From contig JBPOIB010000001.1 of NCBI GenBank assembly GCA_052034935.1, positions 236,173-300,172 of the forward strand: a DNA stretch of 64,000 bases. Reading direction: 5' to 3'. This document shows, piece after piece, positions 22,013-56,513 of this stretch; the first letter of the stretch is position 1; each line of letters opens with the position of its first letter. Below the pieces are notes generated by a model, which had not been told where the DNA came from, made no database searches, and saw nothing but the letters and a program-made list of their open reading frames with translations. The position numbers and the translations under genes were made by a program. This stretch comes from Candidatus Moraniibacteriota bacterium. Its GTDB lineage: Bacteria; Patescibacteriota; Minisyncoccia; Moranbacterales; UBA1568.

Positions 22013-22038
22013 ATGCTCTGGTGACGCGACTATTAACG

Positions 22039-39969: not shown

Positions 39970-39986
39970 AGGCGGGATATAACGAA

Positions 39987-42307: not shown

Positions 42308-44074
42308 TTACTCGGCTGATTCGTCGGCATCCTCTTCGTCGAGGAGCGGATCCGAGTTGCGCTCGAAGAATTCGTTCCAGGTATAGCGCGGCGGCGCCGT
42401 CGAGACGCTCGGCTTCAGCTTGGTGAAATCCTGACGTTCGCCCTCAATCACCTCAGGAAGCGGAAAGAGTTCGATTGCGAGCAGCGTTCCGAACGAAGTC
42501 GTCTCGCCAACCGTATAGCTTTTGCGGTACTTCGCGAGACCCGTCTCGAGATTCGATTGCGCTCGGACGATCAGATAATAGACGCCCTGCCGGTAGATAC
42601 CATCGAAACCGAGCACGGCATTGTCGAGCCCGCGTTTGGTGATGAGATACTTCAGCGCCCGCCGGTACTGCGGCTCATTGAACATGTAGATTGGATATCC
42701 AGTCTCGAGCGAGCGTTGCTCCAGAAAATCCACCATCCGTTCCTGCTGCTCGAACGTGACGCGGATCTTTTCCTTCAGGATACGGTCAGGAACATTCTCG
42801 ACCGCTTCCGTGCCGGCCCGGCTCATTTCGCCGAGCCGGGTGGCAAGCGACACGAGGTTGGCGAGAATGAGCGCCGCAATCGTAACACCGAAGACGATTC
42901 CGGCCCATCGGCTGAACCGGCCGCCGGAAATCCGGGAAAGAGCCGCGAAGAAAAGACCGATCAGGATGATGAAGAATGGTCCGGAGAGGAGAAAGAATCG
43001 AGGTGCGGTGCCGTAGGAGAGAGGGAGAAAGAGCGTGAACGTCACTCCCACCCAAATACCGGAAAGGATGAGGAAGTCTCGCTTTTTCCGATCCGTTTCA
43101 CGACAGAGAAGCCATACGAACGCTACAAGCGAAAGGAAAAGAGCGATGACGCCCAGCGTGCCGTACCATTTCCCATCATCGCATTTCTCGGGACAGTTCC
43201 ACTTGAGCCGTCCCTCGATGACGAAGGAGGGAAAATCAGCGCCTTCGAAACCGGTCGTCACAACAATGGCATGAAGCGCGTGTTCGGAGACGTTCCGGAT
43301 CGCCTTCTCCAGAAGCGGATGATCTTCGCGATTCGATTTTTCGGTGATCGCCCCCCAGAATTCCTCCAGGTTCTGGCCGCCGGTCTCGATTTCATTCAGC
43401 ACCATCGGAAAATAGAGAGCGAAGACAATACCGACGGCGGCGACCCACGTCCGGCCCCGGTAGCGCGGACGCTTGACGAGGAGATAGAGGACGAGAGCGG
43501 TCGGGGCCGCCAGAAAGACGAGGAAGTGGAAGTGGGTGGCGAAGGCGAGAGCCGCGACCGCGGCGAGGAACCAGCGGCCCGGGTGACGTTCGCCGGTTTC
43601 CGTCGCTCGGAGCAGCGCATAAAGACCGAGGAGGACGAAGAAGGGTATCAGGTTGGGATTCCAGGCAAAGCGGCCATACATGACGAAAAACTCAGAAACG
43701 GCAAAGATAGCGGTCAGTCCGAGCGACCAGGAGTCACCAAAGAAACGCCGCGCCAAGAGGAAGAATATCGGGATCGAGAGTACGGAGAAAATGAGTACGA
43801 ACGCCGCCATACCCGCCGGACTGCCGCCGAAAACGAGAGCGCTCAGGTATTCCAGGTAATAGAAACCGGGAGCGAGCCGGAGATAGGTGCCGCCCGCCTT
43901 CGGCCCGAGCAGCGGGAGCTCTCCGGGTCCGCCTTCGAGCGCGGAGTCAATGACGATCGCATCGCGCGCCTGATCGAGCTCAAAATGCAGCCAGTCGGAG
44001 AAGTGGTAGGCACGCAGGAAAAACCCGACCGCGACCAGGGCGACGAGAGCGAAGATAACCTGATTCTTTTTCAT
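42308..44074 (-). CDS. ArnT-like GT-C membrane glycosyltransferase (paralog of the N-terminal domain of 48373-50862)
   Basis: DQARDAIVIDSALEGG...LLGPKAGGTYLRLAPGFYYLEYL...RFAWNPN aligns with the ArnT DEaRYaE...P region and with the ORF at 48373. Confidence 0.6.
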   Translation of the reverse strand: MKKNQVIFALVALVAVGFFLRAYHFSDWLHFELDQARDAIVIDSALEGGPGELPLLGPKAGGTYLRLAPGFYYLEYLSALVFGGSPAGMAAFVLIFSVLSIPIFFLLARRFFGDSWSLGLTAIFAVSEFFVMYGRFAWNPNLIPFFVLLGLYALLRATETGERHPGRWFLAAVAALAFATHFHFLVFLAAPTALVLYLLVKRPRYRGRTWVAAVGIVFALYFPMVLNEIETGGQNLEEFWGAITEKSNREDHPLLEKAIRNVSEHALHAIVVTTGFEGADFPSFVIEGRLKWNCPEKCDDGKWYGTLGVIALFLSLVAFVWLLCRETDRKKRDFLILSGIWVGVTFTLFLPLSYGTAPRFFLLSGPFFIILIGLFFAALSRISGGRFSRWAGIVFGVTIAALILANLVSLATRLGEMSRAGTEAVENVPDRILKEKIRVTFEQQERMVDFLEQRSLETGYPIYMFNEPQYRRALKYLITKRGLDNAVLGFDGIYRQGVYYLIVRAQSNLETGLAKYRKSYTVGETTSFGTLLAIELFPLPEVIEGERQDFTKLKPSVSTAPPRYTWNEFFERNSDPLLDEEDADESAE

Positions 44075-44184
44075 ACGGACAAACGCTTTCTTTTTCGGCC
44101 TTTTTTCGCTAGAATAGTCGTGAATTGAGGCGCCGACAATTGATTTATTTTACCCTTTTTCGGGGTTTTCGCACAACACCTCCT

Positions 44185-46446
44185 ATGCCCCTTGTTTCCC
44201 TATCCCGACTCATGGCGGCACTGCTTTCCCTGACCGCCTTTTTCTTTGTCGCTCGCCAGGTTCCGGACCTCGCAGCCTTCCATTTGGGAGATATCAACCG
44301 ACCTTTCTACCTGACTTTTTTTGTCTTGGGTACAGTTCTCATCGCCGTACTCTTGCGCCAAAGCGGACGGAATTTCCGGCGACTCTTTCCACTCGTCCTC
44401 CGCTTTCTCCTCCCGATGGAACTCATCCTCGGGGCTGGACTCTTCCTTTCAACCAATTTTCACCTCCTCGTTTCTCTCAATGTCGGGATCTATTTCCTCA
44501 CCCTCTTCGGTTACTGGGCCATCCGGACCGCCAAACGTGAACAGACTCTCGAAACGGCCGAGGCAGATGTTCCATCCGCGACTGCCGGATGGGTGGAACG
44601 CTATGGGAAAAAAGAGCTCTTTGTCGTTCTTTTCCTCACTGCTCTCTTCTTTTCCTTCGGTGCCTCACATCTCAGCCGTTTCGCCGCGGTCGATGAGCCG
44701 CTCTGGCTCGAAGGCCGGATTCCGAAATTCTGGAAAAATCTCGGCGAGGGCGACCTTCAGAAGACCAATATTAGTGACAAGCCCGGCATCACCGTGACCT
44801 ACGCCACCGGCCCGGGCCTCTTCTTCGTTGATCCGAAGCAGTACATCGATACCCGCTTCGTCTACAGCGAAAAGAATCCTGACGCCGACATCACCGATCT
44901 GTACCTCGCCTTCCGGCTCCCACTCCTCATCGTCATCACTCTTTTCCTTCCCTGTTTCTACTTTTTACTCTCACCGCTCATTGGCCGACGAAGCGCGCTC
45001 TTCTCATACGCCTTCATTGCACTCTCACCCATCCTCATCGGCATGAGTCGCATCATCAATCCGGACTCGCTCCTCTGGCTCTTCGTTCCGCTTTCCTTCA
45101 TCGCCTACCTCAATTTCCTCGAGAAGCGGCGTTTCTCTTTCCTCTTCATCTCCGCGCTTTTCCTCGGACTCGGTCTCTTGACCAAGTACGTGGCGAACTT
45201 CCTCCTCGTCTACTTTTTTGCTTTCATTTTCTTCTCCTATCTCTACAGCCGGCGCCGCGCCCCGATCGCTTTCGCTGAGCACTTCAGGAGAGAATTAGCT
45301 GCTTTCGGCCTCTGGCTCGGCACCGGACTGTCAGTGTTCTACCTCCTCCTCCCAGCCGTCTGGCAAGAGCCACAAGAACTCTTCACCAGCACAATTCTGA
45401 GCGAAGCCTTCGAAAAGGTCGCACCAATTTTCGTTCTTGTTATCCTCCTTATCCTCATCGATCGGCGCTTTTTCCAGTCACGAGCTGCAACCGCCACTAT
45501 GGCTTTTTTTGTTCAGCAAAAGGACCGGCTTGAACGTCTATTTCTCGCGATTTTCACTCTCGCCGTCGGCATCACTCTCCTCAACGGCATACTCGGTATG
45601 CCCTGGCTCGATTTCATGGAAATTGTCGCCTCACCGAAGAGCATTTCTCAGACACAAGGAGCGATTGGGATTTTCCTTGCAAATTTCTTTCCACTCCTCT
45701 TTGGAGTCCCCGTCATCACCCTCGGTTTCCTCCTCATCGCAACGGGAAATGCCGCGCGGCGGACCGCCATAGAGACTCCTGAGCGTATTCTCACCCTCAG
45801 CATCATTCTTTTCATTCTTCTCTACTATCTCGGCTCAACCGTGAACGAAGTCGTCCTCATCAATCGGTATCAGATCGTCCTCTATCCGCTCGCGAGCATC
45901 CTCGCGGGACTTGGTGCAAGTGCCTGCTTTGATTTTCTCCGCGGCCGGTATGCCCGCTTCGCCACGCTTGATGAACGATTCCTTCCTAGTATCCTCATCA
46001 TCATATTACCGCTCGTCATCACCCTCCTCGCGACACCGTTTCCCATGAGTTATACCTCGCCGCTTCTCCCCGACCAGTACACCATCGATATCAAGGACAT
46101 GGGCAACGGAAGCTACGAGGCGGCAGAATACCTGAACAGCCTCCCCGATGCCCGGTCAATGGCCATCTGGACTGATAAGCGCGGCGTCTGTAAATTCTTC
46201 CTGGGCGAGTGCACCGACGGCTTTGACTTCGACAACATACCGACGGACGAGATTGATTACATTGTCATTTCATCAGGGCGTGAGAGCCGGACAGAACGAA
46301 TGATGGCGAACCCGTACGTCCTGAATGACGAGGGTCTCATCCGCTTCGACACCTATTACTCGCGCACGGACGCCGACTTCGAGCTCCTCATCAACGGCCG
46401 GCCCTCACACTACGTCCGTGTCTTTCGCTTCGAACCTGAATCATAG
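44185..46446 (+). CDS. PMT/ArnT-like GT-C membrane glycosyltransferase (tandem paralog A)
   Basis: The loop-1 motif is DEPLWLEG, followed by DKPGITV and RIINPDSLLW. The C-terminal domain is paralogous to that of 46449. The track start is TTG; I used ATG 44185. Confidence 0.6.
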   Translation: MPLVSLSRLMAALLSLTAFFFVARQVPDLAAFHLGDINRPFYLTFFVLGTVLIAVLLRQSGRNFRRLFPLVLRFLLPMELILGAGLFLSTNFHLLVSLNVGIYFLTLFGYWAIRTAKREQTLETAEADVPSATAGWVERYGKKELFVVLFLTALFFSFGASHLSRFAAVDEPLWLEGRIPKFWKNLGEGDLQKTNISDKPGITVTYATGPGLFFVDPKQYIDTRFVYSEKNPDADITDLYLAFRLPLLIVITLFLPCFYFLLSPLIGRRSALFSYAFIALSPILIGMSRIINPDSLLWLFVPLSFIAYLNFLEKRRFSFLFISALFLGLGLLTKYVANFLLVYFFAFIFFSYLYSRRRAPIAFAEHFRRELAAFGLWLGTGLSVFYLLLPAVWQEPQELFTSTILSEAFEKVAPIFVLVILLILIDRRFFQSRAATATMAFFVQQKDRLERLFLAIFTLAVGITLLNGILGMPWLDFMEIVASPKSISQTQGAIGIFLANFFPLLFGVPVITLGFLLIATGNAARRTAIETPERILTLSIILFILLYYLGSTVNEVVLINRYQIVLYPLASILAGLGASACFDFLRGRYARFATLDERFLPSILIIILPLVITLLATPFPMSYTSPLLPDQYTIDIKDMGNGSYEAAEYLNSLPDARSMAIWTDKRGVCKFFLGECTDGFDFDNIPTDEIDYIVISSGRESRTERMMANPYVLNDEGLIRFDTYYSRTDADFELLINGRPSHYVRVFRFEPES

Positions 46447-46448
46447 AC

Positions 46449-48371
46449 ATGGAAACTGAATCACTCACACCACCATCGACTCACTGCCCTCATTCCCGCA
46501 AGGAACAAGTTTTCCTCTTCGGGATGCTTGCACTCATCCTCGGGACTTTCTTCTCCTTCGGCTGGTTTCATCTCGGTAAGTTCGAGACGACCGATGAACA
46601 TCTCTGGAAGTACGACCGCATCGGCCAATACTGGTCAGCCCTCGCGGAGTGGGACCTGGAAAAAACCTACATCAACGATAAGCCTGGTGTCACGGTCGCG
46701 CTCATCTCAGGTTTCGGTCTTCTCACCGAACCACATCCCGAACAAAACGAACTGCGTCCCGAAAATGATAGCCGCTTCGAAGCATACGATACGAAACAGT
46801 CCGAAATCACCAACGTCCGCTTCCGCCTCCCCGTCCTTATTTTCAGTACGATTGCGCTCATTGCCTTCTTTTTCCTCCTGGGCCATGCTTTCGGCAATTG
46901 GCGGATAGCCCTCCTCGGTACACTCATGATTGCGCTCTCACCGGTCCTCGTTGGTATCGCGCAGATTATTAACCCGGACAGCTTTTTCTGGATCTTCGGT
47001 AGTCTCTCGGCCCTCGCCTATTTCGCTCTGCTCCGGACCGGCCGGTTCTCTTTCGTTATTCTTACCGGCATTCTCACCGGCTTCGCACTCCTTTCCAAGT
47101 ACACCGCCTTCATTCTCTTCGCATTCTATGGTTTAGCACTCGGCTTCTCACTCATCAGTGAGCGGGCTGCAGACACCGATTGGCGCAACCTCGGAACGAA
47201 TCTTGTTCGTCTCGCCCTCATCTTTCTCCTCTCGATTGTTGTTTTCGTTCTCTTTCTCCCGGCTGTCTTCGTTCGGCCGGAGTATCTCTTCAAGGGAATC
47301 TCGCAATTTTTCTCCGGGGACGTAGCGCTTCTTCCAACCCTTTTCTTCGCCGGACTCATCATTGTTGCCGGAACTTTCATCATCCGCCGCTTTCCACTCA
47401 CGCCAATACTGAAGTTTTTCCGAACGAAAGAGCGCTTCATCTCCGGCGTGATTCTCGCTGCTTTTCTCGCACTCTTCTTTCTTTCTCTTCTCAATGTCTG
47501 GACGGGACAGAAACTCGTACCAGTTGATGCACTCCGCGATGCTGCCTATTCCAATGAACCGCAGTCATTCAATTTCCGCCCGCTCATCCCGAAAGGTGCG
47601 CCCGAGCTCGGGAAGAATGCCCGACTCATCTTCGTCGAAAGCTACCCGCTCTTTTTCGCTCTGTCGCCGCTCATCCTCGGACTCATCCTCATGGGCTGTA
47701 TGCAGTTCTTCCGCGGAAAACTCTCATCCGAAACGCGTCTTTTTCTCGTAACTCTTATCGCCTTCACCCTCCTCTATTTCGCCTCGACACTCTTTGCTAA
47801 AGTAGTGACCAATGCCCGCTACCTTATCCTCCTCTATCCACTCTTTGCCACCCTTGCCGCACTCGTCCTTTTTGATCTGCTCCGGGAACGCACCATGAAG
47901 CAACCACTCGCTCTCATAGGGGCTGCCTTTTTCGTCTTCGTAATAGGTAGTCTGACACTCTGGCAAGTCCGACCATTCTATTTTAGCTACACGAACAGTC
48001 TCCTCCCCAACCAGTTCACTGCCCATGATTCGTGGGGTCACGGCGCTTACGAAGCAGCTCAGTACCTGAACAGCTTGCCCAATGCTCAAAACATTATCAT
48101 CTGGTCGAATTCCGATACGGTCTGCCGGTTCTTCGAAGGCAAGTGCCTCCGCTCGCGAAAAATTGATCTTTCCGTCGTAACACCCGACTATTTCGTCCTT
48201 TCCAAACGCGGGGTGATCAAGCTAAATAATCGTTTCATCCTCCTCAATAACCCGGACCCGGAAAAAGACAGCGACTACTACTTTAAGCAACTAGAGAAGG
48301 ATCCTCTCTGGAAGCTCGAAATCAACGGCCGGCCAGAGAACTATCTGAAGATTATCCCATTCGAAAAGTAA
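46449..48371 (+). CDS. PMT/ArnT-like GT-C membrane glycosyltransferase (tandem paralog B)
   Basis: The motifs DEHLWKYD, DKPGVTV, QIINPDSFFW and YEAAQYLNSLPNA parallel those of 44185. Confidence 0.6.
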   Translation: METESLTPPSTHCPHSRKEQVFLFGMLALILGTFFSFGWFHLGKFETTDEHLWKYDRIGQYWSALAEWDLEKTYINDKPGVTVALISGFGLLTEPHPEQNELRPENDSRFEAYDTKQSEITNVRFRLPVLIFSTIALIAFFFLLGHAFGNWRIALLGTLMIALSPVLVGIAQIINPDSFFWIFGSLSALAYFALLRTGRFSFVILTGILTGFALLSKYTAFILFAFYGLALGFSLISERAADTDWRNLGTNLVRLALIFLLSIVVFVLFLPAVFVRPEYLFKGISQFFSGDVALLPTLFFAGLIIVAGTFIIRRFPLTPILKFFRTKERFISGVILAAFLALFFLSLLNVWTGQKLVPVDALRDAAYSNEPQSFNFRPLIPKGAPELGKNARLIFVESYPLFFALSPLILGLILMGCMQFFRGKLSSETRLFLVTLIAFTLLYFASTLFAKVVTNARYLILLYPLFATLAALVLFDLLRERTMKQPLALIGAAFFVFVIGSLTLWQVRPFYFSYTNSLLPNQFTAHDSWGHGAYEAAQYLNSLPNAQNIIIWSNSDTVCRFFEGKCLRSRKIDLSVVTPDYFVLSKRGVIKLNNRFILLNNPDPEKDSDYYFKQLEKDPLWKLEINGRPENYLKIIPFEK

Positions 48372-48372
48372 C

Positions 48373-50862
48373 ATGATGTCGAAACTCTCGATGGGTCATA
48401 TTGTAGAGCAGACTCGGAAAAACCGAACGGTCTTAATCCTTGCTGCCATCCTTGTCATCGGCGCCATCTTCAAACTGGCCGACTTTTCTGACCTTGTTCG
48501 CTTCAACGCCGACCAGGTGCGCGACGTACGCATTGTCGAATCCATGGTGAATGAAGGAGAGTTCCCACTCCTCGGCCCGAAAGCCGGTGGCACGACCTTC
48601 AAGCTCGGGCCAGCCTTCTACTATCTCGAATACTTCTCAGCATCCCTCTTCGGTGCAACACCAGAGGGTATCGCGCTCATTTTTCCTCTTCTCAGCATCG
48701 CTTCAGTCGCACTCCTTTTCTTCCTTTTCCGCCGCTTCTTTCCTGTGCCGCTCGCACTTGGGTTGACCCTGCTCTACGCTACTGCGTTCTACTTCACCAA
48801 GTACTCACGCTTCGCCTGGAATCCGAACGCGATTCCGTTCCTCTTTATCGCTTTCCTTATCCTTCTCCTCATTTCGATGGAAACGACCGGAAAACGACTC
48901 CTCATCACTTACGGACTCATCGGACTCACCATGGGTATCGGGATGCAACTCCACACGACACTCCTACTTCTCATGCCGGCTCTTTTCCTCGCGGTGCATA
49001 TCCGGAGTGCCATCGAGAAAAATAACTACCGCTGGCAAGAATTTGCCCTCGCCACCATGCTCGCGCTTTTCTGCCATGTCCCATTCTTCCTTTCGGATCT
49101 CCAGAACGGTGGCGCCAATATCCGGTCATTCTTCGCCGGGATGACCACCAAGACCGAAGAGAACCAATCTCTCGGCAGCAATCTCATCTTGAATGCTCAA
49201 TTTTTTATCCAAGGCACCACGTACGCACTATCTGGAATGGAGCCGAGCAAGGACTGGACTAAGTCAAAAAGTTACGCTTCGTTTCCGAATTTCCGCGAAT
49301 TCCTCCTCGTCATAGGTGGTCTCGGCTTCTTCGTACTTGGAGCCTTCTTCCTGGTCCGTCGGCTTCAGAGCGAACGCAACCAGGAGCGCAAGAATTTCCT
49401 TGAGCTCATGTCCGCGCTCCTCGGATTTTCTTTTCTTCTTTTCCTCCCAATCGCCAACGAGCTCAATCTCCGATTCTTCATCGTCCTTGTGGTATTGCCC
49501 TACCTCTTCCTCGCACTCATTAGTGAAGAGTTCCTTCACCGATGCAAGACACGTCCTCACTTCGCCTACACAGCGGTCACTTTACTCTTCGTTCTCCTTA
49601 TCCTCGCCAATACCCGCATGGTCATCCGGACTTATGATCTCGAAGACTACCAGGTCAAAGACCAAGTCTATGGTGGTCTTTCGCTTGACGAAGGAAAGCG
49701 ACTCGCCACTTTCATTGCCGAAACGGACCAGGCATCAGGAAATAAAAACGGCCGTGTCATCATGTATTCATTCGAGTTCGAACGCTCTCTTGAATACCTT
49801 CTTGAGCCCTATAATCTCCAGATTGACGAAATCGAAGAGGACCAGTCGCGCCTCGCGCTCCGCTACCTCATTACCGAAAATGACAAGACTGAAGCGGCCA
49901 GGAAAAAGCTCGATTGCTGTTACACTGTGCTCCGAGAGAATAAGATTGGCCGCTTCACCATCACCGCTCTCGCGCCGAAAGAGGATCTGGGCGCGTGCAA
50001 AATCGGATTCATCACTGATATCCATGCCACCCGTTCGAAAGAAGCTCCCTTCATCGGTTTCGGCTCCTACGAGCCACTCCTCGCCTTCATGGATACGATG
50101 GAGGAAAAATTCCAGCCTGATATCCTCGTCGAGAACGGCGACTTTATCGACGGTTCGGAGACGAGCAATGCTCGGGCGCTTGAACTCTACCAACGCACGA
50201 AAAGGATCTACGATAGACTCGGCCTCCCCACACTCCATGTCATGGGCAATCATGAGACCAGGAAGGGCGGCATCACCACGGAGCAGTGGCTCACGTTCGC
50301 CGGGCAGGACCGTACCTACTACTCCGAAACCTGCAAGAACACCGAGATCGTCGTGCTTGACGGAAACAATGATGCGCTCCGCGAATCAATGAACGAAGAC
50401 GAGCGTAAAACACTCGAGAGGAACTATTTCATACCGGAAGAACAATTCGCTTGGCTCGAGTCCGCGCTCGCCGCTGCGAAAGACCGCCAGAAAATCGTCT
50501 TCATCCATGAACCGCTCTTTCCTCGCGCCGAAATCACCCAGAATATCAAGCCCGAAAAGGATTTACGGAAAGAGGATAGAGAACGGCTTCAGGCGCTTTT
50601 CAAAGAGCACTCAGTGGCAGCTGTCGTCTCTGGACATGTCGAGTCCCTCTTCCATTCAACTATCGGTGGCACTGGACATTTTATCCTCCCGGGTGTCCGG
50701 AAGAGTGCCAACCTCGCCGTCCAGTGGCTCGGGTCTTTCGCGGAAATCGTCGTCGGAAGCAATGGCGAAGTTGCACTGAATTTTATGTATCGGAAAAACT
50801 GGGAAGAGTCCTACGAATCTGTCTTCATCCCCTCCCGAGCCTACCGGAATCTGGAGAAATAA
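48373..50862 (+). CDS. Fusion: ArnT-like GT-C membrane domain (N-terminal, about 380 aa) plus C-terminal calcineurin-like metallophosphoesterase domain
   Basis: The N-terminus is paralogous to 42308 (ADQVRDVRIVESMVNEGEFPLLGPKAGG; RFAWNPN). The C-terminus has the motifs DIH, GDFIDG, GNHE, FIHEP and SGHVE. Confidence 0.65.
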   Translation: MMSKLSMGHIVEQTRKNRTVLILAAILVIGAIFKLADFSDLVRFNADQVRDVRIVESMVNEGEFPLLGPKAGGTTFKLGPAFYYLEYFSASLFGATPEGIALIFPLLSIASVALLFFLFRRFFPVPLALGLTLLYATAFYFTKYSRFAWNPNAIPFLFIAFLILLLISMETTGKRLLITYGLIGLTMGIGMQLHTTLLLLMPALFLAVHIRSAIEKNNYRWQEFALATMLALFCHVPFFLSDLQNGGANIRSFFAGMTTKTEENQSLGSNLILNAQFFIQGTTYALSGMEPSKDWTKSKSYASFPNFREFLLVIGGLGFFVLGAFFLVRRLQSERNQERKNFLELMSALLGFSFLLFLPIANELNLRFFIVLVVLPYLFLALISEEFLHRCKTRPHFAYTAVTLLFVLLILANTRMVIRTYDLEDYQVKDQVYGGLSLDEGKRLATFIAETDQASGNKNGRVIMYSFEFERSLEYLLEPYNLQIDEIEEDQSRLALRYLITENDKTEAARKKLDCCYTVLRENKIGRFTITALAPKEDLGACKIGFITDIHATRSKEAPFIGFGSYEPLLAFMDTMEEKFQPDILVENGDFIDGSETSNARALELYQRTKRIYDRLGLPTLHVMGNHETRKGGITTEQWLTFAGQDRTYYSETCKNTEIVVLDGNNDALRESMNEDERKTLERNYFIPEEQFAWLESALAAAKDRQKIVFIHEPLFPRAEITQNIKPEKDLRKEDRERLQALFKEHSVAAVVSGHVESLFHSTIGGTGHFILPGVRKSANLAVQWLGSFAEIVVGSNGEVALNFMYRKNWEESYESVFIPSRAYRNLEK

Positions 50863-51796
50863 TTCCTTCGGTTTCCTTCGCTTTGAGATAATGCGGCAGA
50901 GCGAGGAATGAAATGAGCATCTGCAGAAGCCGGGAAAGAAGTGCGGCGGTCACCGCTACTTCCGCTGAAACGCCGACGAGCCCAAAGAAAAAGACATACG
51001 CCCACTCTTTCACGCCGATATTATTGACGGAGATGGGGATATTGGCGACGAGCGTCGCAGAAAAGATTGCGCTGAAAAATACCCAGAACGGGAGATCGGC
51101 GCTGAGCGCCTGGAAAAGTACGTAGTTGCTGAGTCCCACCCCGACCAACATGAAAAAAAGCGACCAGAGAAGTGCTCGGCCGTAGGTTTTCCGGTTCGCG
51201 AATAATTCGAAGCCCTGGAAAACCCCGACCAGCTTCTGTCCAGGGAACAGTGCGGCCAGCGGCTGGAGAGAGCGGTAGAGCTTCTCCGTCCAGAGAAGCG
51301 CCGCGAAGATCATCAGGGCAGCCGAAAGCACGATCGCACCAAGGATAATCAGTACGGGATCGGTCGACAAGACCGCCCACGGGTACGCAAAAAGCCCGAG
51401 ACCCGACAAGAGGAAGAGTCCGAGCAGGCCGGTAATCCGGTCGAAGAAAACGACCGCGAACGCACGAACGCGTTCCCCTGCCTTCGCCATCCAGAAAACC
51501 CGGTAGGTGTCACCGCCGACCGTCGAGGGCAGGAAATTATTGATAAAAGCGCCGGAGAGATAGGCGAAGAATCCATCAGCTACACTGAAGGAGAAACCCT
51601 GAAGCCGGGCAAGATACTGCCATTTCGCCGCCGAAATAATGTTTCCGATAATCTGGATGAGGCAGTAGCTGATCAGGAGCGGCACCGAAGCCTCAGCGAT
51701 GATACCGGCTACCGATGACCAATCGACCGCTTTGATGAGCCAGACGACCAAGGCAATAGTCACGGCAATTTTAAGCGGCAATTTTACATTTTTCAT
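50825..51796 (-). CDS. UPF0104 / lysylphosphatidylglycerol-synthase-TM-like flippase-like membrane protein
   Basis: About 8 TM segments are predicted. The N-terminus KIAVTIALVVWLIKAVDW...FINNFLPSTVGGDTYRVFW matches the family. I set the start at ATG 51796. Confidence 0.6.
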   Translation of the reverse strand: MKNVKLPLKIAVTIALVVWLIKAVDWSSVAGIIAEASVPLLISYCLIQIIGNIISAAKWQYLARLQGFSFSVADGFFAYLSGAFINNFLPSTVGGDTYRVFWMAKAGERVRAFAVVFFDRITGLLGLFLLSGLGLFAYPWAVLSTDPVLIILGAIVLSAALMIFAALLWTEKLYRSLQPLAALFPGQKLVGVFQGFELFANRKTYGRALLWSLFFMLVGVGLSNYVLFQALSADLPFWVFFSAIFSATLVANIPISVNNIGVKEWAYVFFFGLVGVSAEVAVTAALLSRLLQMLISFLALPHYLKAKETEGIISPDSGRLGRG

Positions 51797-51804
51797 ATCC
51801 TCGT

Positions 51805-52965
51805 TTATTTTGTGGAACACTGTTCGAGGACCGACTGAAAATTCTTTGCTACCTTATTCCAACTCTGTGCTTCAGCCCGCTGCCGACTTTCGCTCCCATA
51901 CTTCATTACAAGCTCTCGGTTCTGTAAAAACATCTCAATCGCTTTCGCGAGCGCTTCAGCGGAACGCTCTGGGATAACTATACCATTCACTCCTTCTCGG
52001 ACGAGCTCAGCCGTTCCGCCGGTCGGCGTAGCAATGATAGGGAGACCACACGCGAGCGCTTCAAGCATCGCATTGCTCATCCCCTCGTTCAGCGATGGGA
52101 GGACAAAAAGCGAAGCCTCCTGGTAGTACGGCGCCGTTTCTTCGCGCGGTATCCGTCCGAGGAAAGTCACTTTTTCCTGCAATCCTTTTTCTCGGACAAG
52201 CGTTTCAAGCGCCGGCCGAGCACTTCCATCCCCCATCACTTTCAGATGAATGTCCGGATACCGGGACGCGAGCATCGCGACGGCTTCGATCAGATAATCA
52301 AGCCCCTTCCGCTCGGTCACCCGAGAAGCCCCAGGCGTGATAATGAATTCGTCCTTCGGGCGCCTGCTTTGATCGGAGGTAAAACGACGGATATCGACGC
52401 CGTTTTCAATGATAGTGAACGACTGTTTTGGTGCTGACTCTTTGGCCAGTGCCTCAAGACCGACGCTATTCGGGACTACTGCCGCCGCAAAGCGCCAGAC
52501 GAGACGGATAACCGGACGAATAAAAGGATAGAGCCATGAATACTTGCGACTATACCCTGGGACATCCGATCCACGAAGGGACACAATATACGGTAGGTGG
52601 AATTCCCATTTGAGAAGCAACGCCAAAAATCCACAGGGTACCCCGAAGAAAGCCAGTGTCGTATCAAAAGGCTTGGACTGCTTCTCTATGAGCTTACGCG
52701 AGAACCACCAAGCCTTGAGACTGTATCTGAGAACATCCCCGATCGACTGATGGTGTAGATTATTCTCGTTCTTCCCAATCGGTAAACGATGAATGAAGAC
52801 ATTGCTGCCGAGCGTCGTTTTGACGAACTCAGAACCCACGCTCGACGTCACGAGATGCACCTCGATAGATTCGTCCCGCGCCCATTCTTCGAGAATACAG
52901 GCTGTAGCATTGGCTGCTCCACCGCCGAGGGGCGGATACTCGTAGTTAAGGAAGAGGACTTTCAT
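51805..52965 (-). CDS. Glycosyltransferase family 4
   Basis: The N-terminus MKVLFLNYEYPPLGGGAANA is typical of GT4. NEGMSNAMLEALACGLPIIAT is the C-terminal motif. Confidence 0.75.
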   Translation of the reverse strand: MKVLFLNYEYPPLGGGAANATACILEEWARDESIEVHLVTSSVGSEFVKTTLGSNVFIHRLPIGKNENNLHHQSIGDVLRYSLKAWWFSRKLIEKQSKPFDTTLAFFGVPCGFLALLLKWEFHLPYIVSLRGSDVPGYSRKYSWLYPFIRPVIRLVWRFAAAVVPNSVGLEALAKESAPKQSFTIIENGVDIRRFTSDQSRRPKDEFIITPGASRVTERKGLDYLIEAVAMLASRYPDIHLKVMGDGSARPALETLVREKGLQEKVTFLGRIPREETAPYYQEASLFVLPSLNEGMSNAMLEALACGLPIIATPTGGTAELVREGVNGIVIPERSAEALAKAIEMFLQNRELVMKYGSESRQRAEAQSWNKVAKNFQSVLEQCSTK

Positions 52966-52984
52966 GCGCTGAAGATTTCAGATT

Positions 52985-54295
52985 CTACACCCCGACCCCG
53001 TAGTACTCGAATCCGGCGGCCTCCGCCTCGGAGCGCTCAAGAACATTGCGCCCATCATAGATGATCACACCTCTCATCTGTTTCTTGATATCTTTATAAT
53101 CTGCTACTCGGAATTCATCCCACTCAGTACAGATAACGAGCGCGTCCACGCCCTTGAGCGCTTCCAGAGCTTTTTTGGTATATGTGAGCCGCTTGTCAGT
53201 CATTACCTTCGCGGCTGTTTCCATCGCGACCGGATCAAAAGCCCGGACCTTTGCCCCTGCCTCGAGCAGCGCGCGGATATTCATGAGTGCGGCCGCCTCG
53301 CGGACATCGTCCGTTCGTGGCTTAAATGCGAGCCCCCAGACGGCAACGGTTTTGTCCTTCATCTTTTCGCCCCAGAGCTCGCGCAGCTTTGCAAAGGGCC
53401 GGAGACGTTGGCTCGTATTCACCTCATCCACCATCTCGAGTAGTTGGAAATGCGACTGATATTCATGTCCGGTCTTGATGAATGCTTTCACATCTTTTGG
53501 GAAGCATGAGCCACCATAGCCGATTCCCGCATAGAGAAAACGTGAGCCGATCCGATTATCATAGCCGAGCCCCTTGGCCACTTCTTTTACGTTGCCGCCG
53601 GCCGCCTCGCAGAAATTCGCCACCTCATTGATGAAAGTAATCTTGGTCGCGAGGAACGCATTCGCTGCGTACTTAATGATTTCTGCACTCCGGACATCGG
53701 TCAGCATGAGCGGCCGACCGCTCCGGACGATCGGACGATACACCTGTTCCATAATCTTCTTCGCCTTGACTGATGCGGCTCCGACGACAACTCGGTCCGG
53801 ATTGAGGAAATCCTTCACTGCCGCTCCCTCGCGGAGAAATTCCGGATTGGAGACGACTTCGAACGGATGCTTGCCTTTGGACGCTTCTTTGATAACCCGA
53901 GTGACTTTCTCCGCCGTCCCGACTGGTACGGTCGACTTATCGACGAAGATCTTGTAGCTATTCAAATGTTTACCAAAGGCTTCCGCCGCCGAGAAAACAT
54001 ACTTCAGATTCGCCTCGCCCGTCACCGGGTCCTCTGGAGTACCGACCGCCATAAATACAACCTCCGATTCTTGGATCGCCTCCTTCAGGTCAGTCGTAAA
54101 CGAGAGCCGGCCCTCCTTTACATTTCGCTCGACAACCTCCTCGAGGCCAATTTCGTAGATTGGGATGATCCCTTTCTTCAGCTTGGCAATCTTTTCTTTG
54201 TCGACATCGGCGCAAATCACCTCATGCCCGATTTCCGCCATGCACGCCCCCGACACTAGACCGACATACCCCGTCCCCAGAAAGGAAAGTTTCAT
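52985..54295 (-). CDS. ugd: UDP-glucose 6-dehydrogenase
   Basis: MKLSFLGTGYVGLVSG is the Rossmann motif. GGSCFPKD carries the catalytic Cys. I set the start at ATG 54295 because the track start is TTG. Confidence 0.85.
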   Translation of the reverse strand: MKLSFLGTGYVGLVSGACMAEIGHEVICADVDKEKIAKLKKGIIPIYEIGLEEVVERNVKEGRLSFTTDLKEAIQESEVVFMAVGTPEDPVTGEANLKYVFSAAEAFGKHLNSYKIFVDKSTVPVGTAEKVTRVIKEASKGKHPFEVVSNPEFLREGAAVKDFLNPDRVVVGAASVKAKKIMEQVYRPIVRSGRPLMLTDVRSAEIIKYAANAFLATKITFINEVANFCEAAGGNVKEVAKGLGYDNRIGSRFLYAGIGYGGSCFPKDVKAFIKTGHEYQSHFQLLEMVDEVNTSQRLRPFAKLRELWGEKMKDKTVAVWGLAFKPRTDDVREAAALMNIRALLEAGAKVRAFDPVAMETAAKVMTDKRLTYTKKALEALKGVDALVICTEWDEFRVADYKDIKKQMRGVIIYDGRNVLERSEAEAAGFEYYGVGV

Positions 54296-54364
54296 ACACA
54301 AATCAATTATCAGTAATCAAATCCGCTGGCACGATAAAAACCTTCGCAGTCAAGAAATCCCGTC

Positions 54365-55309
54365 TTAAGGATTCGTGACGACTTCGCGCACATTGTAGTT
54401 CATCCGATGGCGCGCCTGGTAATAGCTCCGCACCGAGATATCCGCCAAAAGGCCGGAGACAAAGAGTTGAATCCCAATGAGAGCGAAGAAGACGCCAATG
54501 AGCGGCCAGAGACGCTCCGAGAGCGAAGCGCCAAAAACGAGCTTCTCCACGAGCATCCAAGCGAGGATGACACCGCCGAGAGAAAAAAGGAATACGCCGA
54601 CACCACCGAAAAGATGGAGCGGACGATGGGAGTACTTGCGCCAGAACCAAATGGAGAGCATATCAACGAACCCTTTCATCCCGCGCTTCCAATTGTATTT
54701 GGTCACGCCATGGACGCGTGGGTGATGGCTCACCTTCACTTCCGCCACCCTGAATCCTTCGAGCTCGAGGATTGCCGGGATAAAACGATGCATTTCGCCA
54801 AAGAGATCGATATCTTTGAAGCACTCGCGACGATACGCCTTCAGGCTGCAGCCGGAATCATGGATATTGTCATGAATGAGGACCTTGCGGAGTAGGTTGG
54901 CAATGCGCGATGGAATCTTCTTACTCCATGGATCCTGGCGTTTGTAGCGCCAGCCGGACACGACATCATAACCCTCATTTATTTTCCCAATGAGAAGCGG
55001 GATATCGTCCGGATCATTCTGAAGATCGCCATCAAGGGTTACAATGATATCATTCGTTGCTGCCTTGATACCTGCATCGAACGCCGCCGTCTGACCGAAG
55101 TTCTTCCGGAAGACGATGAGTTTCACTGGCGTGCACTGCTTGGCCTCAACAAGCGTCTTATCCCGCGAACCATCATCGACGAAGATGATTTCATAGGGAT
55201 TGCCCATCTTTTGGAGCGCCGCCTTAATCCGTCGGTGAAGCTCAAGCACATTCCCCTCTTCGTTATAGAGCGGAACGACCACTGAAAGCGAACATTTTAC
55301 TGTTTCCAT
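54365..55309 (-). CDS. GT2 polyprenyl-phosphate glycosyltransferase (GtrB/ArnC/DPM1-like) with two C-terminal TM helices
   Basis: The GT-A region is LSVVVPLYNEEGN...FVDDGSRDKT...TLDGDLQND. The C-terminal TM segments are FGGVGVFLFSLGGVILAWMLV and LIGVFFALIGIQLFVSGLL. Confidence 0.8.
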   Translation of the reverse strand: METVKCSLSVVVPLYNEEGNVLELHRRIKAALQKMGNPYEIIFVDDGSRDKTLVEAKQCTPVKLIVFRKNFGQTAAFDAGIKAATNDIIVTLDGDLQNDPDDIPLLIGKINEGYDVVSGWRYKRQDPWSKKIPSRIANLLRKVLIHDNIHDSGCSLKAYRRECFKDIDLFGEMHRFIPAILELEGFRVAEVKVSHHPRVHGVTKYNWKRGMKGFVDMLSIWFWRKYSHRPLHLFGGVGVFLFSLGGVILAWMLVEKLVFGASLSERLWPLIGVFFALIGIQLFVSGLLADISVRSYYQARHRMNYNVREVVTNP

Positions 55310-55389
55310 GGTGTCATTTTACCGGATAGCGGTATGAAAGGCAAAGCCAGATCGAATAATTCCAAACCCCGATACTCGGATTTTTTACC

Positions 55390-55418
55390 TTGACAAAGAA
55401 TGTTATTACATGTAGTAT
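55390..55418 (+). promoter_or_regulatory. Sigma70-like promoter TTGACA-N17-TGtAGTAT
   Basis: TTGACA at 55390-55395, a 17-nt spacer, and TAGTAT at 55413-55418 preceded by TG. It lies 18 nt before ATG 55436. Confidence 0.55.
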
Positions 55419-55435
55419 ATGACTTAATAAAACCT

Positions 55436-56371: not shown

Positions 56372-56513
56372 AACCTATCTGGACCGGGATGAAAGAGCAT
56401 GCCATACTGTTGGCATGTTTTGCTTTTCTTAAGCCTTTTCACCAACCTGTTTCCGATCAAGCAAAATACTGGATCGCTCAATATGCCCAAAGCTCGCCTG
56501 AATATTCGACCGA

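What the first reader, a model, noticed from the sequence alone, without database searches (positions are those of the whole stretch)
48373..50862. Novel domain fusion: ArnT-like GT-C glycosyltransferase joined to a calcineurin-like metallophosphoesterase
One 829-aa ORF carries two domains. The N-terminal part is about 380 aa of polytopic membrane domain, paralogous to 42308-44074 (shared LLGPKAGG, FYYLEY, RFAWNPN). The C-terminal part is about 330 aa with the full set of metallophosphoesterase metal-binding motifs: DIH, GDFIDG, GNHE, FIHEP and SGHVE.

Both domains would face the extracytoplasmic side. This suggests coupled glycosyl transfer and phosphoester hydrolysis, for example trimming a phosphodiester-linked glycan or recycling the lipid-PP carrier. 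I do not recognise this architecture from any characterised system.
Basis: partly seen in the sequence, partly recalled or inferred. Interest (0 to 1): 0.7.

Follow-up and report, generated by a model that had tools for sequence, protein, structure and literature searches.

The report
Sugar-transferase fused to outward-facing metallophosphoesterase
This is a real, conserved membrane enzyme of tiny uncultured (Patescibacteria/Moranbacteria) bacteria in which a lipid-linked-sugar transferase is joined to a metal-dependent phosphate-ester-cutting domain on the outside of the cell, a pairing no one has characterised, and which has arisen several separate times.

Summary
Window 48373-50862 (+) is one uninterrupted 829-aa ORF. 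It has an 11-helix GT-C membrane domain (PMT_2; fold closest to Pmt2/Pmt4, ArnT and STT3), a ~120-aa soluble middle domain, and a ~290-aa calcineurin-like metallophosphoesterase (MPE). All metal-ligand motifs are invariant, but the last motif is GHxE rather than GHxH.

It is not an assembly artefact. About 28 full-length homologues (36-100% identity) come from independent assemblies, all from Moranbacteria/Patescibacteria.

The fusion is the joined form of a gene module. In syntenic clusters elsewhere, the GT (~530 aa) and the MPE (~320 aa, with its own signal-anchor) are abutting separate genes. The same MPE clade is also fused to a second, unannotated GT-C family (L018), and once to the cluster's flippase-like LPG_synthase_TM protein (L039).

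Topology (N-in, 11 TM, C-out) puts both catalytic sites outside the cell. The cluster also makes polyprenyl-phosphate sugars (ArnC-like GT2, UDP-Glc dehydrogenase, epimerase).

My best reading (about 0.4) is that the MPE hydrolyses a polyprenyl-phosphate-linked intermediate at the outer leaflet to salvage carrier lipid, like UpsH but outward-facing. Trimming of a glycan phosphodiester is the main rival.

The architecture is uncharacterised: a new variant of known kinds.

The parts
48373..50862 (+). Whole fused gene: 829-aa GT-C / middle domain / metallophosphoesterase protein (stop TAA at 50860-50862)
   Evidence: An identical protein is recorded from NCBI and Logan assemblies.
48373..49632 (+). 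GT-C membrane domain, aa 1-420: 11 TM helices, N-terminus inside
48499..48525 (+). First extracytoplasmic loop motif RFNADQVRD (aa 43-51), with invariant D47 and D51: the predicted GT-C catalytic acidic residues
   Evidence: Invariant in 25 fused proteins and in 11 fused, unfused and paralogous GTs. The catalytic role is inferred from general knowledge of GT-C enzymes.
49633..49986 (+). Soluble alpha/beta 'middle' domain (aa 421-538). It belongs to the GT module, is also present in unfused orthologues and the 588-aa paralogue, and joins the phosphoesterase through only about 6 residues.
   Evidence: strand 528-535 then strand 542-547; pLDDT 82-94 across the junction; own MID profile.
49987..50859 (+). 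Calcineurin-like binuclear metallophosphoesterase domain (aa 539-829)
50017..50025 (+). Metal motif I, D549-I-H551
   Evidence: Invariant.
50137..50142 (+). Metal motif II, G589-D590 (bridging Asp)
   Evidence: Invariant.
50245..50256 (+). Metal motif III, G625-N626-H627-E628 (followed by invariant R630)
50506..50508 (+). Metal motif IV, H712
   Evidence: Invariant.
50632..50643 (+). Metal motif V, G754-H755-V-E757: the clade-specific GHxE variant of GHxH
   Evidence: E757 is invariant in every Patescibacteria clade member, fused or free. The Chitinophaga and Fimbriimonadia outgroup keeps GHxH.
44125..48371 (+). Two upstream PMT/PMT_2 GT-C genes (44125-46446 and 46449-48371), 2 nt and 1 nt from their downstream neighbours: probably one operon with the fused gene
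42308..44074 (-). 588-aa paralogue of the GT module (no phosphoesterase)
38434..39999 (-). 521-aa 'type-2' GT-C-like membrane protein with no Pfam or NCBIfam hit. Its family is the one fused to the same phosphoesterase clade in L018.
   Evidence: 29% identity, E 3e-68; 314 bits to the A3 profile.
39987..42293 (-). Secreted Beta_helix + PGA_cap protein, a conserved cluster member
   Evidence: synteny.
50825..51820 (-). Flippase-like LPG_synthase_TM protein, convergent with the fused gene and overlapping it by 38 nt. Its orthologue is itself fused to the phosphoesterase in L039.
51805..57236 (.). Sugar-activation genes of the cluster: GT4 (51805-52965 -), UDP-glucose 6-dehydrogenase (52985-54301 -), ArnC/PgfS-like polyprenyl-phosphate GT2 (54365-55309 -), GalE-like epimerase (55400-56371 +), PpgS-like GT2 (56514-57236 +)
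   Evidence: Conserved synteny in L001, L005, L034-L036, L038 and L039.

Best explanation
The gene encodes a bifunctional, outward-facing cell-envelope enzyme. It is the fused form of a gene module that recurs in Moranbacteria/Patescibacteria glycan clusters.

Shown or strongly supported (about 0.9):
(i) It is one intact protein with an 11-TM GT-C domain, a soluble middle domain and a binuclear metallophosphoesterase (MPE).
(ii) The catalytic residues of both halves are under purifying selection.
(iii) The topology is N-in / C-out, so the GT-C catalytic loop, the middle domain and the MPE all lie outside the membrane.
(iv) GT and MPE are functionally coupled, because the same MPE clade occurs as an abutting separate gene and is fused to two different GT-C families and to the cluster's flippase-like protein.

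Inferred pathway (about 0.7): UDP-sugars made by the cluster's dehydrogenase and epimerase are loaded on polyprenyl phosphate by the ArnC-like GT2, flipped, and used outside by the four or five GT-C enzymes to build or decorate a surface glycoconjugate.

Inferred chemistry of the MPE (about 0.4, the number given as confidence): it hydrolyses the phosphodiester or pyrophosphate head-group of a polyprenyl-phosphate-linked sugar or glycan, or the spent carrier, at the outer leaflet next to the protein that binds that lipid. This liberates or recycles scarce carrier lipid. It would be an outward-facing, physically tethered counterpart of B. subtilis UpsH/UshA.
For: Architecture and activity. Invariant residues are D47/D51 in the GT half and D549, H551, D590, N626, H627, H712, H755 and E757 in the MPE half.

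Topology: 11 helices in the model; K+R 21.6 in six short 'inside' segments against 3.1 in three short 'outside' segments over 25 sequences; all 14 free MPEs start with a K/R-rich stretch followed by a hydrophobic helix. In the L039 fusion a KRNKHKKIKKNNKRK stretch, one extra TM helix and then the MPE follow the flippase-like domain.

Coupling:
- Split adjacent pairs, with a 1-nt gap in L001.
- A locus carrying both a free and a fused MPE.
- Fused and free MPEs interleave in the tree.
- A second fusion to a remote GT-C family: hhalign 96%, E 1.3e-9; four fused members; fold matches to AglB, STT3 and ArnT.
- A fusion to the orthologue of the window's LPG_synthase_TM gene.
What the three partners share is the handling of polyprenyl-phosphate-linked sugars.

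Pathway context: ArnC/PgfS-like and PpgS-like GT2 enzymes, UDP-Glc dehydrogenase and a GalE-like epimerase, with conserved synteny.

Chemistry:
- UpsH is a membrane-anchored MPE shown genetically to free Und-P from Und-PP-linked teichuronic and teichoic acid intermediates (PMC11898649).
- The MPE is an accessory rather than a universal cluster member: it is next to the flippase-like gene in 3 of 44 informative metagenome loci, and there is none within 10 kb in L038. This suits a salvage or editing role.
Against: - No biochemical evidence exists for any member of the family.
- The 120-aa middle domain lies between the last TM helix and the MPE, so the active site may sit away from the membrane surface. 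I could not obtain coordinates to measure this.
- GT-C enzymes of the PMT/ArnT type release polyprenyl monophosphate, which needs no phosphatase.
- UpsH faces the cytoplasm and, from memory, belongs to a different MPE subgroup (COG1408, GHTHGGQ-type motif); this was not tested here.
- The nearest sequence relatives are soluble diesterases (GpdQ E 0.008; SpdA model 40 bits against a cutoff of 400).
Confidence: 0.4

Rival explanations
1. Glycan trimming. The MPE removes a phosphodiester-linked substituent (such as glycerol-phosphate, ethanolamine-phosphate, choline-phosphate or sugar-1-phosphate) from the surface glycan that the GT-C enzymes build. This could be a maturation or checkpoint step, as the luminal metallophosphoesterases PGAP5/Ted1/Cdc1 do for GPI anchors made by GT-C mannosyltransferases.
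For: The nearest sequence and structure relatives are phosphodiesterases acting on hydrophilic head-groups: GpdQ, Rv0805, PhoD and Lmo2642. The MPE surface insertions are charged, with no lipid-binding lid. A rigid 6-residue join to the soluble middle domain would suit acting on the acceptor or product held by the GT. PGAP5 is listed as the GPI-remodelling metallophosphoesterase in PMC6742230; its ethanolamine-phosphate-removing activity is established knowledge and was not tested here.
Against: No recognisable phospho-substituent transferase (LtaS/EptA, LicD or Stealth type) was found among the cluster genes scanned, although several polytopic ORFs have no annotation. This reading does not readily explain the fusion of the MPE to a flippase-like protein, or its pairing with two different GT-C families.
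Confidence: 0.25
2. Acceptor preparation. The MPE cleaves the head-group of a membrane phospholipid or a polyol-phosphate polymer, possibly host-derived (sphingomyelinase- or PLC/PLD-like). This exposes a hydroxyl or phosphomonoester that the attached GT-C then glycosylates, as ArnT glycosylates a lipid phosphate.
Against: This rests purely on structural analogy. Most syntenic clusters work without the MPE, which is hard to square with an obligatory acceptor-generating step. The saposin and C-terminal domains that give sphingomyelinases their lipid access are absent.
Confidence: 0.12
3. Unrelated scavenging enzyme. The MPE is an extracellular nucleotide or phosphodiester scavenger (CpdA/CpdB/GpdQ-like) for a nucleotide-auxotrophic symbiont, tethered to whichever membrane protein was next to it, with no mechanistic link to glycosylation.
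For: The best NCBIfam hit is a 2',3'-cyclic nucleotide phosphodiesterase model (SpdA, E 2e-10). Rv0805 and Lmo2642 are close structural matches. A more distant branch of the clade (L020-L027) has no GT-C detected by my profiles within 6 kb in seven of eight loci.
Against: At least three independent fusions all involve partners from the same glycan cluster, and strict adjacency holds across 36-100% identity. The scores to the cNMP phosphodiesterase models are far below their cutoffs (40.6 against 400; 21.9 against 225).
Confidence: 0.1
4. The membrane half is not a transferase but a lipid-linked-sugar flippase or scaffold (Agl23-like) that presents its lipid cargo to the MPE. On this view the protein is a translocase-hydrolase rather than a transferase-hydrolase.
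For: The GT domain hits the Agl23 family model TIGR03663 weakly (E 1e-4). Agl23 is reported to flip hexose-P-dolichol and to translocate M5GN2-PP-Dol in liposomes (PMC11182771). The MPE is also fused to a flippase-like LPG_synthase_TM protein.
Against: The score is 21 bits against a family cutoff of 126. D47 and D51 are invariant in the loop where GT-C enzymes carry their catalytic acid. The best fold matches are bona fide transferases.
Confidence: 0.08
5. Artefact: a sequencing or assembly error merged two genes, or the MPE domain is a dead remnant.
For: A ~97% nt-identical copy in a JGI contig is called as two genes.
Against: That split is a T6-to-T7 homopolymer indel inside the GT domain of the other assembly, not at the junction. 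The intact frame is shared by about 28 homologues from NCBI, JGI, ENA and Logan. The junction is ordered and conserved, and all metal ligands are invariant.
Confidence: 0.01

Closest known systems
Protein O-mannosyltransferases Pmt1/2/4 (GT39) and ArnT (GT83): GT-C enzymes of the Pfam PMT_2/PMT group
   Different: Sequence identity is only 10-14%. There is no MIR domain (PMTs). There is no hit to an ArnT equivalog model, and the host presumably lacks lipid A (knowledge, not tested). It carries its own conserved motifs (RFNADQVRD, LLGPKAGGT, RFAWNPN) and a catalytic phosphoesterase at the C-terminus, which no characterised GT-C has.
Class III phosphodiesterase / purple-acid-phosphatase-like metallophosphoesterases: GpdQ, Rv0805/CpdA, PAP, ADPRibase-Mn-like 2nxf, SMPDL3B/acid sphingomyelinase, PhoD
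   Different: 13-21% identity. The last ligand is Glu (GHxE) throughout the clade. The domain is membrane-tethered or fused to GT-C or flippase-like proteins. Scores lie far below the cutoffs of the SpdA and CpdA equivalog models.
UpsH (YpbG) and UshA of Bacillus subtilis: carrier-lipid-liberating hydrolases (PMC11898649)
   Same: UpsH is a membrane-anchored metallophosphoesterase genetically shown to free Und-P from Und-PP-linked teichuronic and teichoic acid precursors. UshA does the same for Und-P-sugars that accumulate when the GT-C enzyme is missing. The window's cluster likewise combines UDP-GlcA synthesis, polyprenyl-P-sugar synthases, GT-C enzymes and an MPE.
   Different: UpsH's catalytic domain is cytoplasmic (protease protection), whereas the domain here is predicted to be outside. 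UpsH is a free, stress-induced gene, not fused to or paired with a GT-C. The sequence relationship was not tested.
Three-component extracytoplasmic glycosylation systems (CsbB/GtrB-type GT2 + GtrA/GtcA flippase + YfhO/GtrC/PgfM GT-C)
   Same: The same logic and parts are present: ArnC/PgfS-like GT2, a flippase(-like) protein and GT-C transferases acting outside. In L008, L010 and L018 the GT2 is even fused to a GtrA domain.
   Different: There are four or five GT-C paralogues per cluster, the flippase candidate is of the LPG_synthase_TM type, and there is an added phosphoesterase component.
GPI-anchor pathway: GT-C mannosyltransferases (PIG-M/V/B) plus the luminal metallophosphoesterases PGAP5/Ted1/Cdc1
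   Same: An MPE on the non-cytoplasmic side edits a phosphodiester on a glycan assembled by GT-C enzymes from polyprenyl-P-mannose.
   Different: The eukaryotic proteins are separate, act in different compartments and are not shown to be homologous beyond the superfamily. No ethanolamine-phosphate transferase was found here.
LtaS / EptA (MCR-1) architecture
   Same: A polytopic membrane domain followed by an extracytoplasmic metal-dependent enzyme acting on phospho-head-groups of lipids.
   Different: Those catalytic domains are of the alkaline-phosphatase/sulfatase fold and act as transferases via a covalent intermediate. Here the fold is calcineurin-like, a typical hydrolase, and the membrane part is a GT-C.

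Membership tests
GT-C glycosyltransferase superfamily (Pfam PMT_2, PF13231) | Sequence match to the family model above the curated threshold | tested here: met
   38.1 bits against a cutoff of 26.1, aa 80-233.
GT-C glycosyltransferase superfamily (Pfam PMT_2, PF13231) | GT-C fold: multi-pass membrane domain resembling solved GT-C enzymes | tested here: met
GT-C glycosyltransferase superfamily (Pfam PMT_2, PF13231) | Conserved acidic residue(s) in the first extracytoplasmic loop | tested here: met
   D47 and D51 are invariant in 25 fused proteins and in 11 mixed fused, unfused and paralogous sequences.
GT-C glycosyltransferase superfamily (Pfam PMT_2, PF13231) | Uses a polyprenyl-phosphate-linked sugar donor and transfers it outside the membrane | not testable with these tools
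   Indirect evidence only: ArnC/PgfS-like and PpgS-like GT2 enzymes and a flippase-like gene in the conserved cluster.
ArnT (L-Ara4N transferase) proper | Match to an ArnT equivalog model, with lipid A as acceptor | tested here: not met
   No ArnT model appears among the NCBIfam hits at E <= 0.01. Only fold-level similarity at 12-14% identity. Relatives are named Moranbacteria/Patescibacteria; absence of lipid A in these organisms is background knowledge, not tested.
Calcineurin-like metallophosphoesterase superfamily (PF00149) | Sequence match above the curated threshold | tested here: met
   65.3 bits against a cutoff of 21.5, aa 543-756.
Calcineurin-like metallophosphoesterase superfamily (PF00149) | Metal-ligand motifs DxH / GD / GNH[DE] / H / GHxH | tested here: inconclusive
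   The first four motifs and the His of the fifth are invariant. The final His is replaced by an invariant Glu (GHxE) in the whole clade. A carboxylate can ligate the metal, and from memory 5'-nucleotidases carry Gln there, but activity is unproven.
Calcineurin-like metallophosphoesterase superfamily (PF00149) | Alpha-beta-beta-alpha sandwich fold | tested here: met
Class III cyclic-nucleotide phosphodiesterases (CpdA / SpdA / Rv0805) | Score at or above the equivalog model cutoff | tested here: not met
   SpdA 40.6 bits against 400; CpdA PRK11148 21.9 against 225.
UpsH (YpbG) carrier-lipid hydrolase | Catalytic domain on the cytoplasmic face | tested here: not met
   Predicted to be outside: an odd number (11) of TM helices, N-in by the positive-inside count. 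UpsH is cytoplasmic by protease protection.
UpsH (YpbG) carrier-lipid hydrolase | Specific sequence relationship to YpbG/COG1408 | not tested
LpxH-type lipid pyrophosphatase | Close structural match including the helical lipid-binding lid | tested here: not met
Agl23 (TIGR03663) flippase-associated family | Score at or above the family cutoff | tested here: not met
   21.3 bits against 126.25.

The most novel reading that the evidence does not exclude
The GHxE metallophosphoesterase clade is an outer-leaflet carrier-lipid hydrolase. It would cleave polyprenyl-P-sugars or polyprenyl-PP(-glycans), or dephosphorylate polyprenyl-P to a freely flipping polyprenol, while docked on the GT-C transferase or flippase that holds the lipid. 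If so, it would be the first extracytoplasmic, physically coupled system for reclaiming polyprenyl carrier. It may be an adaptation of ultra-small symbionts that cannot afford to strand carrier lipid.
Probability: 0.3. Interest if true: 0.8.

Novelty: new variant of a known kind. Interest (0 to 1): 0.6.

Why it matters
How bacteria keep the small pool of polyprenyl-phosphate carrier available is an active question. The first enzymes that free it from dead-end intermediates (UshA, UpsH) were reported in 2025, and both act inside the cell.

Here, evolution has repeatedly welded a metallophosphoesterase to the outside-facing proteins that handle polyprenyl-linked sugars: two GT-C families and a flippase-like protein. 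That is strong comparative evidence for an unrecognised phosphoester-hydrolysis step on the outer face of a glycosylation pathway. It also supplies a compact single-polypeptide system in which to test that step.

The finding further defines a Patescibacteria-specific phosphoesterase clade (GHxE) and exposes an unannotated GT-C family. Both improve annotation of the poorly understood cell envelopes of CPR bacteria.

Tried and rejected
- **Artefact hypothesis:** rejected.
- **Sequence search of the PDB with the MPE half:** only weak hits, best GpdQ at E 0.008. Profiles of the GT families (A3, A4) found nothing meaningful in the PDB by sequence, so fold searches were needed.
- **AFDB (afdb50) fold search:** the library was unavailable, so I could not survey UniProt for the architecture outside these lineages.
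- **Literature:** six term combinations found no description of the fusion.
- **Promoter/terminator scan of the operon:** nothing above background.
- **First positive-inside count:** using full AF2 helices as boundaries was uninformative because the helices include charged ends. I redid it with hydrophobic cores.
- **Free MPE N-termini:** their orientation is ambiguous by charge alone, since lysines occur on both sides of the helix. The topology argument therefore rests on the fused proteins.
- **Metagenome scan for more flippase-MPE fusions:** only the query's own contig was found, so that fusion is so far a single lineage (one protein cluster, two contigs).
- **P0239:** its C-terminus matches my own MPE profile weakly (40 + 25 bits) but not Pfam Metallophos. 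I treat it as a degenerate variant and not as evidence.
- **Geometry:** I could not obtain model coordinates, so the distance and orientation between the two active sites and the membrane remain unmeasured.
- **NJ tree:** it has no bootstrap support. 'Repeated fusion/fission' within Moranbacteria is indicative only, but independence of the L018 and L039 fusions rests on their different partners.
Full report
**Observation**

The ORF at 48373-50862 (+) is real, ATG-initiated and uninterrupted, and encodes 829 aa.

Pfam places PMT_2 at aa 80-233 (38.1 bits, cutoff 26.1) and Metallophos at aa 543-756 (65.3 bits, cutoff 21.5). The N-terminal part is paralogous to 42308-44074 (27% identity over aa 15-535, E 1e-50).

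The domain sizes need correcting. The GT module is about 535 aa. It consists of 11 transmembrane helices (aa 1-420) plus a soluble alpha/beta 'middle' domain (aa 421-538), which the paralogue and all unfused orthologues also possess. The phosphoesterase occupies aa 539-829.

**Structure and topology**

An AlphaFold2 model built on 25 family members is confident (mean pLDDT 85.4, pTM 0.69). The junction is ordered: strand 528-535, six residues, then strand 542-547, with pLDDT 82-94.

With hydrophobic cores as boundaries, the 25 aligned proteins carry on average 21.6 Lys+Arg in the six short segments predicted inside, against 3.1 in the three short segments predicted outside. Eleven helices and an inside N-terminus place three elements outside the membrane:
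- the first loop, with invariant D47 and D51;
- the middle domain;
- the phosphoesterase.

This is a prediction, not an experiment.

**Not an artefact, and conserved**

A search of 5.8 billion proteins found about 28 full-length homologues (797-879 aa, 36-100% identity) carrying both Pfam domains, from NCBI, JGI, ENA and Logan assemblies. Where named, they are Candidatus Moranbacteria or 'uncultured bacterium'.

In the alignment the GT motifs are invariant (RFNADQVRD, GPKAGGT, WNPN, H194). So is the full metal-ligand set of the phosphoesterase: D549, H551, D590, N626, H627, H712 and H755.

The last motif is GHxE, not GHxH. The Glu is invariant in every Patescibacteria member of the clade, fused or free, whereas the Chitinophaga/Fimbriimonadia outgroup keeps GHxH.

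A profile search of 1.84 billion cluster representatives found only about ten fused representatives at 50% clustering. The same top-150 list held more than a hundred unfused ~530-aa GT representatives.

One near-identical JGI copy is called as two genes. This is a T6/T7 homopolymer indel inside the GT domain of that other assembly, not at the domain junction.

**The fusion is the joined form of a gene module**

Free homologues of the phosphoesterase (310-365 aa) exist, each with an N-terminal K/R-rich stretch followed by a hydrophobic helix.

In L001/L014 and L002-L004 the orthologous GT (519-535 aa as called) and the free phosphoesterase (310-319 aa) are adjacent genes, with a 1-nt gap in L001. 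The surrounding synteny is otherwise the same as in the window. L005 and L035 carry both a free and a fused copy.

In an unbootstrapped NJ tree of 67 phosphoesterase domains, fused and free forms interleave.

Three other arrangements involve different partners:

- **A second GT-C family.** In L008, L009, L010, L017 and L019 the phosphoesterase genes are preceded by a ~460-520-aa membrane protein with no Pfam hit. In L018 that protein is fused to the phosphoesterase, giving an 831-aa ORF whose phosphoesterase half is 31% identical to the window's (E 6e-39). The family has four fused and about 80 unfused members. It is remotely homologous to the window's GT (hhalign 96.4%, E 1.3e-9). Its model has a GT-C fold: AglB E 1.8e-8, plus STT3, ArnT, ALG9 and PglB. 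The window's own unannotated ORF 38434-39999 (-) belongs to this family (29% identity, E 3e-68).
- **The flippase-like protein.** In L039 the GT is unfused, and the phosphoesterase, preceded by one extra TM helix, is fused to the C-terminus of the orthologue of the window's LPG_synthase_TM gene. The N-terminal half is 36% identical (E 5e-56) and the phosphoesterase half 30% identical (E 3e-29), with the GHxE signature. The sequence is recorded from JGI, Logan and MetaClust.
- **A degenerate variant.** P0239 joins a paralogue-type GT to a degenerate phosphoesterase-like domain.

**Pathway context**

The conserved Moranbacteria cluster runs in this order:

1. type-2 GT-C
2. secreted beta-helix protein (with or without PGA_cap)
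3. PMT_2 paralogue
4. two PMT-type GT-Cs
5. the GT, with or without the phosphoesterase
6. LPG_synthase_TM flippase-like protein
7. GT4
8. UDP-glucose 6-dehydrogenase
9. ArnC/PgfS-like GT2
10. GalE-like epimerase
11. PpgS-like GT2

This is the logic of three-component extracytoplasmic glycosylation: a polyprenyl-phosphate-sugar synthase, a flippase and GT-C transferases.

The three GT-C genes at 44125-50862 are 1-2 nt apart.

The phosphoesterase is an accessory part. Of 44 metagenome loci with at least 1.5 kb beyond the flippase-like gene, 3 have the phosphoesterase there, 18 have an unfused GT without it, and 23 have neither. L038 has none within 10 kb.

**Mechanism**

Shown or strongly supported: a single polypeptide with two intact catalytic centres, both predicted to be outside, whose coupling is selected repeatedly.

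Inferred: the GT half transfers a sugar from a polyprenyl-monophosphate donor. Its best fold matches, PMT and ArnT, both use such donors.

For the phosphoesterase I favour hydrolysis of a polyprenyl-phosphate-linked species at the outer leaflet, i.e. carrier-lipid liberation or recycling (about 0.4). Four observations lead me there:

- The one thing its three fusion partners have in common is handling polyprenyl-linked sugars.
- Its structural neighbours include cell-surface lipid head-group phosphodiesterases and pyrophosphate-cleaving enzymes.
- B. subtilis UpsH, a membrane-anchored metallophosphoesterase, frees Und-P from Und-PP-linked teichuronic and teichoic acid intermediates, and UshA does so for Und-P-sugars (Roney and Rudner 2025, PMC11898649).
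- An accessory distribution fits a salvage role.

Four points count against this:

- There is no hydrophobic lid, and similarity to LpxH is poor.
- The middle domain may hold the active site away from the membrane.
- PMT/ArnT-type reactions release a monophosphate that needs no phosphatase.
- UpsH faces the cytoplasm.

The main rival (about 0.25) is trimming of a phosphodiester substituent on the glycan, as PGAP5/Ted1/Cdc1 do in the GPI pathway. Further rivals:

- head-group cleavage to prepare a lipid or polyol-phosphate acceptor (0.12);
- an unrelated scavenging phosphodiesterase (0.10);
- a membrane half that flips rather than transfers, Agl23-like (0.08; PMC11182771).

**Comparison and novelty**

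Each half is a member of a known superfamily (GT-C/PMT_2 and calcineurin-like phosphoesterase). Neither reaches the threshold of any functionally defined family model (ArnT, SpdA, CpdA, Agl23).

No characterised GT-C carries a catalytic phosphoesterase, and no paper describing the fusion or the gene pairing was found. The sequences themselves have been public for years as hypothetical proteins (for example EKD58401.1 and EKE25803.1).

I therefore rate it a new variant of known kinds, and of above-average interest. The repeated fusions point to an unrecognised phosphoester-hydrolysis step on the outer face of a polyprenyl-dependent glycosylation pathway, and they offer a single-protein system in which to test it.

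Noticed in passing
window 38434-39999 (-): A 521-aa polytopic protein with no Pfam or NCBIfam hit belongs to an unannotated, remote GT-C family ('type 2'). The family has about 80 unfused ~510-aa members, mostly labelled 'hypothetical'. Evidence: hhalign 96% to the PMT_2-type GT, and an AF2/Foldseek GT-C fold for a fused relative. It occupies a conserved position beside the beta-helix gene in L005, L034-L036 and L039.
   Followed up: yes
L018 4429-6924 (+) (JABGXP010000020.1); proteins P0258-P0261: A second, independent fusion: the type-2 GT-C joined to the same GHxE phosphoesterase clade (826-835 aa; four members at 62-100% identity). In L019, L008, L009, L010 and L017 the same two parts are separate adjacent genes, sometimes as tandem pairs.
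   Followed up: yes
L039 11623-13512 (-) (JGI Ga0209575_10000029); protein P0345: A 629-aa fusion of the cluster's flippase-like LPG_synthase_TM protein, one extra TM helix and the GHxE phosphoesterase. So far it is a single lineage (one protein cluster, two contigs). A metagenome scan found no further fused copies, but did find free phosphoesterase genes abutting the flippase-like gene in L045, L073 and L091.
   Followed up: yes
protein P0239 (904 aa): A paralogue-type GT (like window 42308-44074) fused to a divergent phosphoesterase-like C-terminus with altered motifs (DIDH, GDNASH, GDHD, SDHP, GEAH). It is missed by Pfam Metallophos and may be a degenerate or re-purposed domain.
   Followed up: partly
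L037 4136-6533 against window ~49195-49210: A ~97% nt-identical copy in a JGI contig is split into 296-aa and 510-aa gene calls by a T6-to-T7 homopolymer indel inside the GT domain. This is either a sequencing error or slipped-strand variation.
   Followed up: partly
window 39987-42293 (-): A secreted protein (signal peptide ...AAIPTAEA|ASYDY) combining a right-handed beta-helix with a PGA_cap (CapA-like) domain. It is conserved next to the GT-C genes. In L001 a GH28 gene and in L036 a Pel9A-like beta-helix sit in the same region, hinting at a uronic-acid-rich polymer. By recall (not tested here), PGA_cap is a second metallophosphatase-superfamily domain.
   Followed up: partly
window 28658-30571 (+), 59703-61367 (+), 20432-22084 (-): Further polytopic membrane ORFs (about 14, 8 and 11 hydrophobic segments). 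The first two have no Pfam hit and the third was not scanned. They could be additional transferases, polymerases or phospho-substituent transferases relevant to the mechanism.
   Followed up: no
L019 6869-9097 (+): A 742-aa protein next to a normal phosphoesterase gene has a phosphoesterase-like domain with degenerate metal motifs (SDWEYG, GGDYIRS, GNHDLK, FTHYS, SGDSSE) and a weak isoamylase-C-like stretch. It may be a pseudo-enzyme.
   Followed up: no
L011-L014, L016, L017, L021, L025-L027 (record titles): Many GTDB-species MAG records that carry this cluster are titled 'uncultured Bdellovibrionales bacterium'. Their proteins are closest to Moranbacteria/Patescibacteria sequences, so the titles look like mislabels from a bulk submission.
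   Followed up: no
window 50825-50862: The 3' ends of the fused gene (+) and the flippase-like gene (-) overlap convergently by 38 nt. The same tight convergent arrangement is seen in L036.
   Followed up: no
L020-L027: A more distant Patescibacteria branch of the GHxE phosphoesterase clade (382-407 aa, with a ~115-135-aa N-terminal extension). Seven of the eight loci have no GT-C detected by my profiles within 6 kb, so the GT association is not universal for the whole clade.
   Followed up: partly
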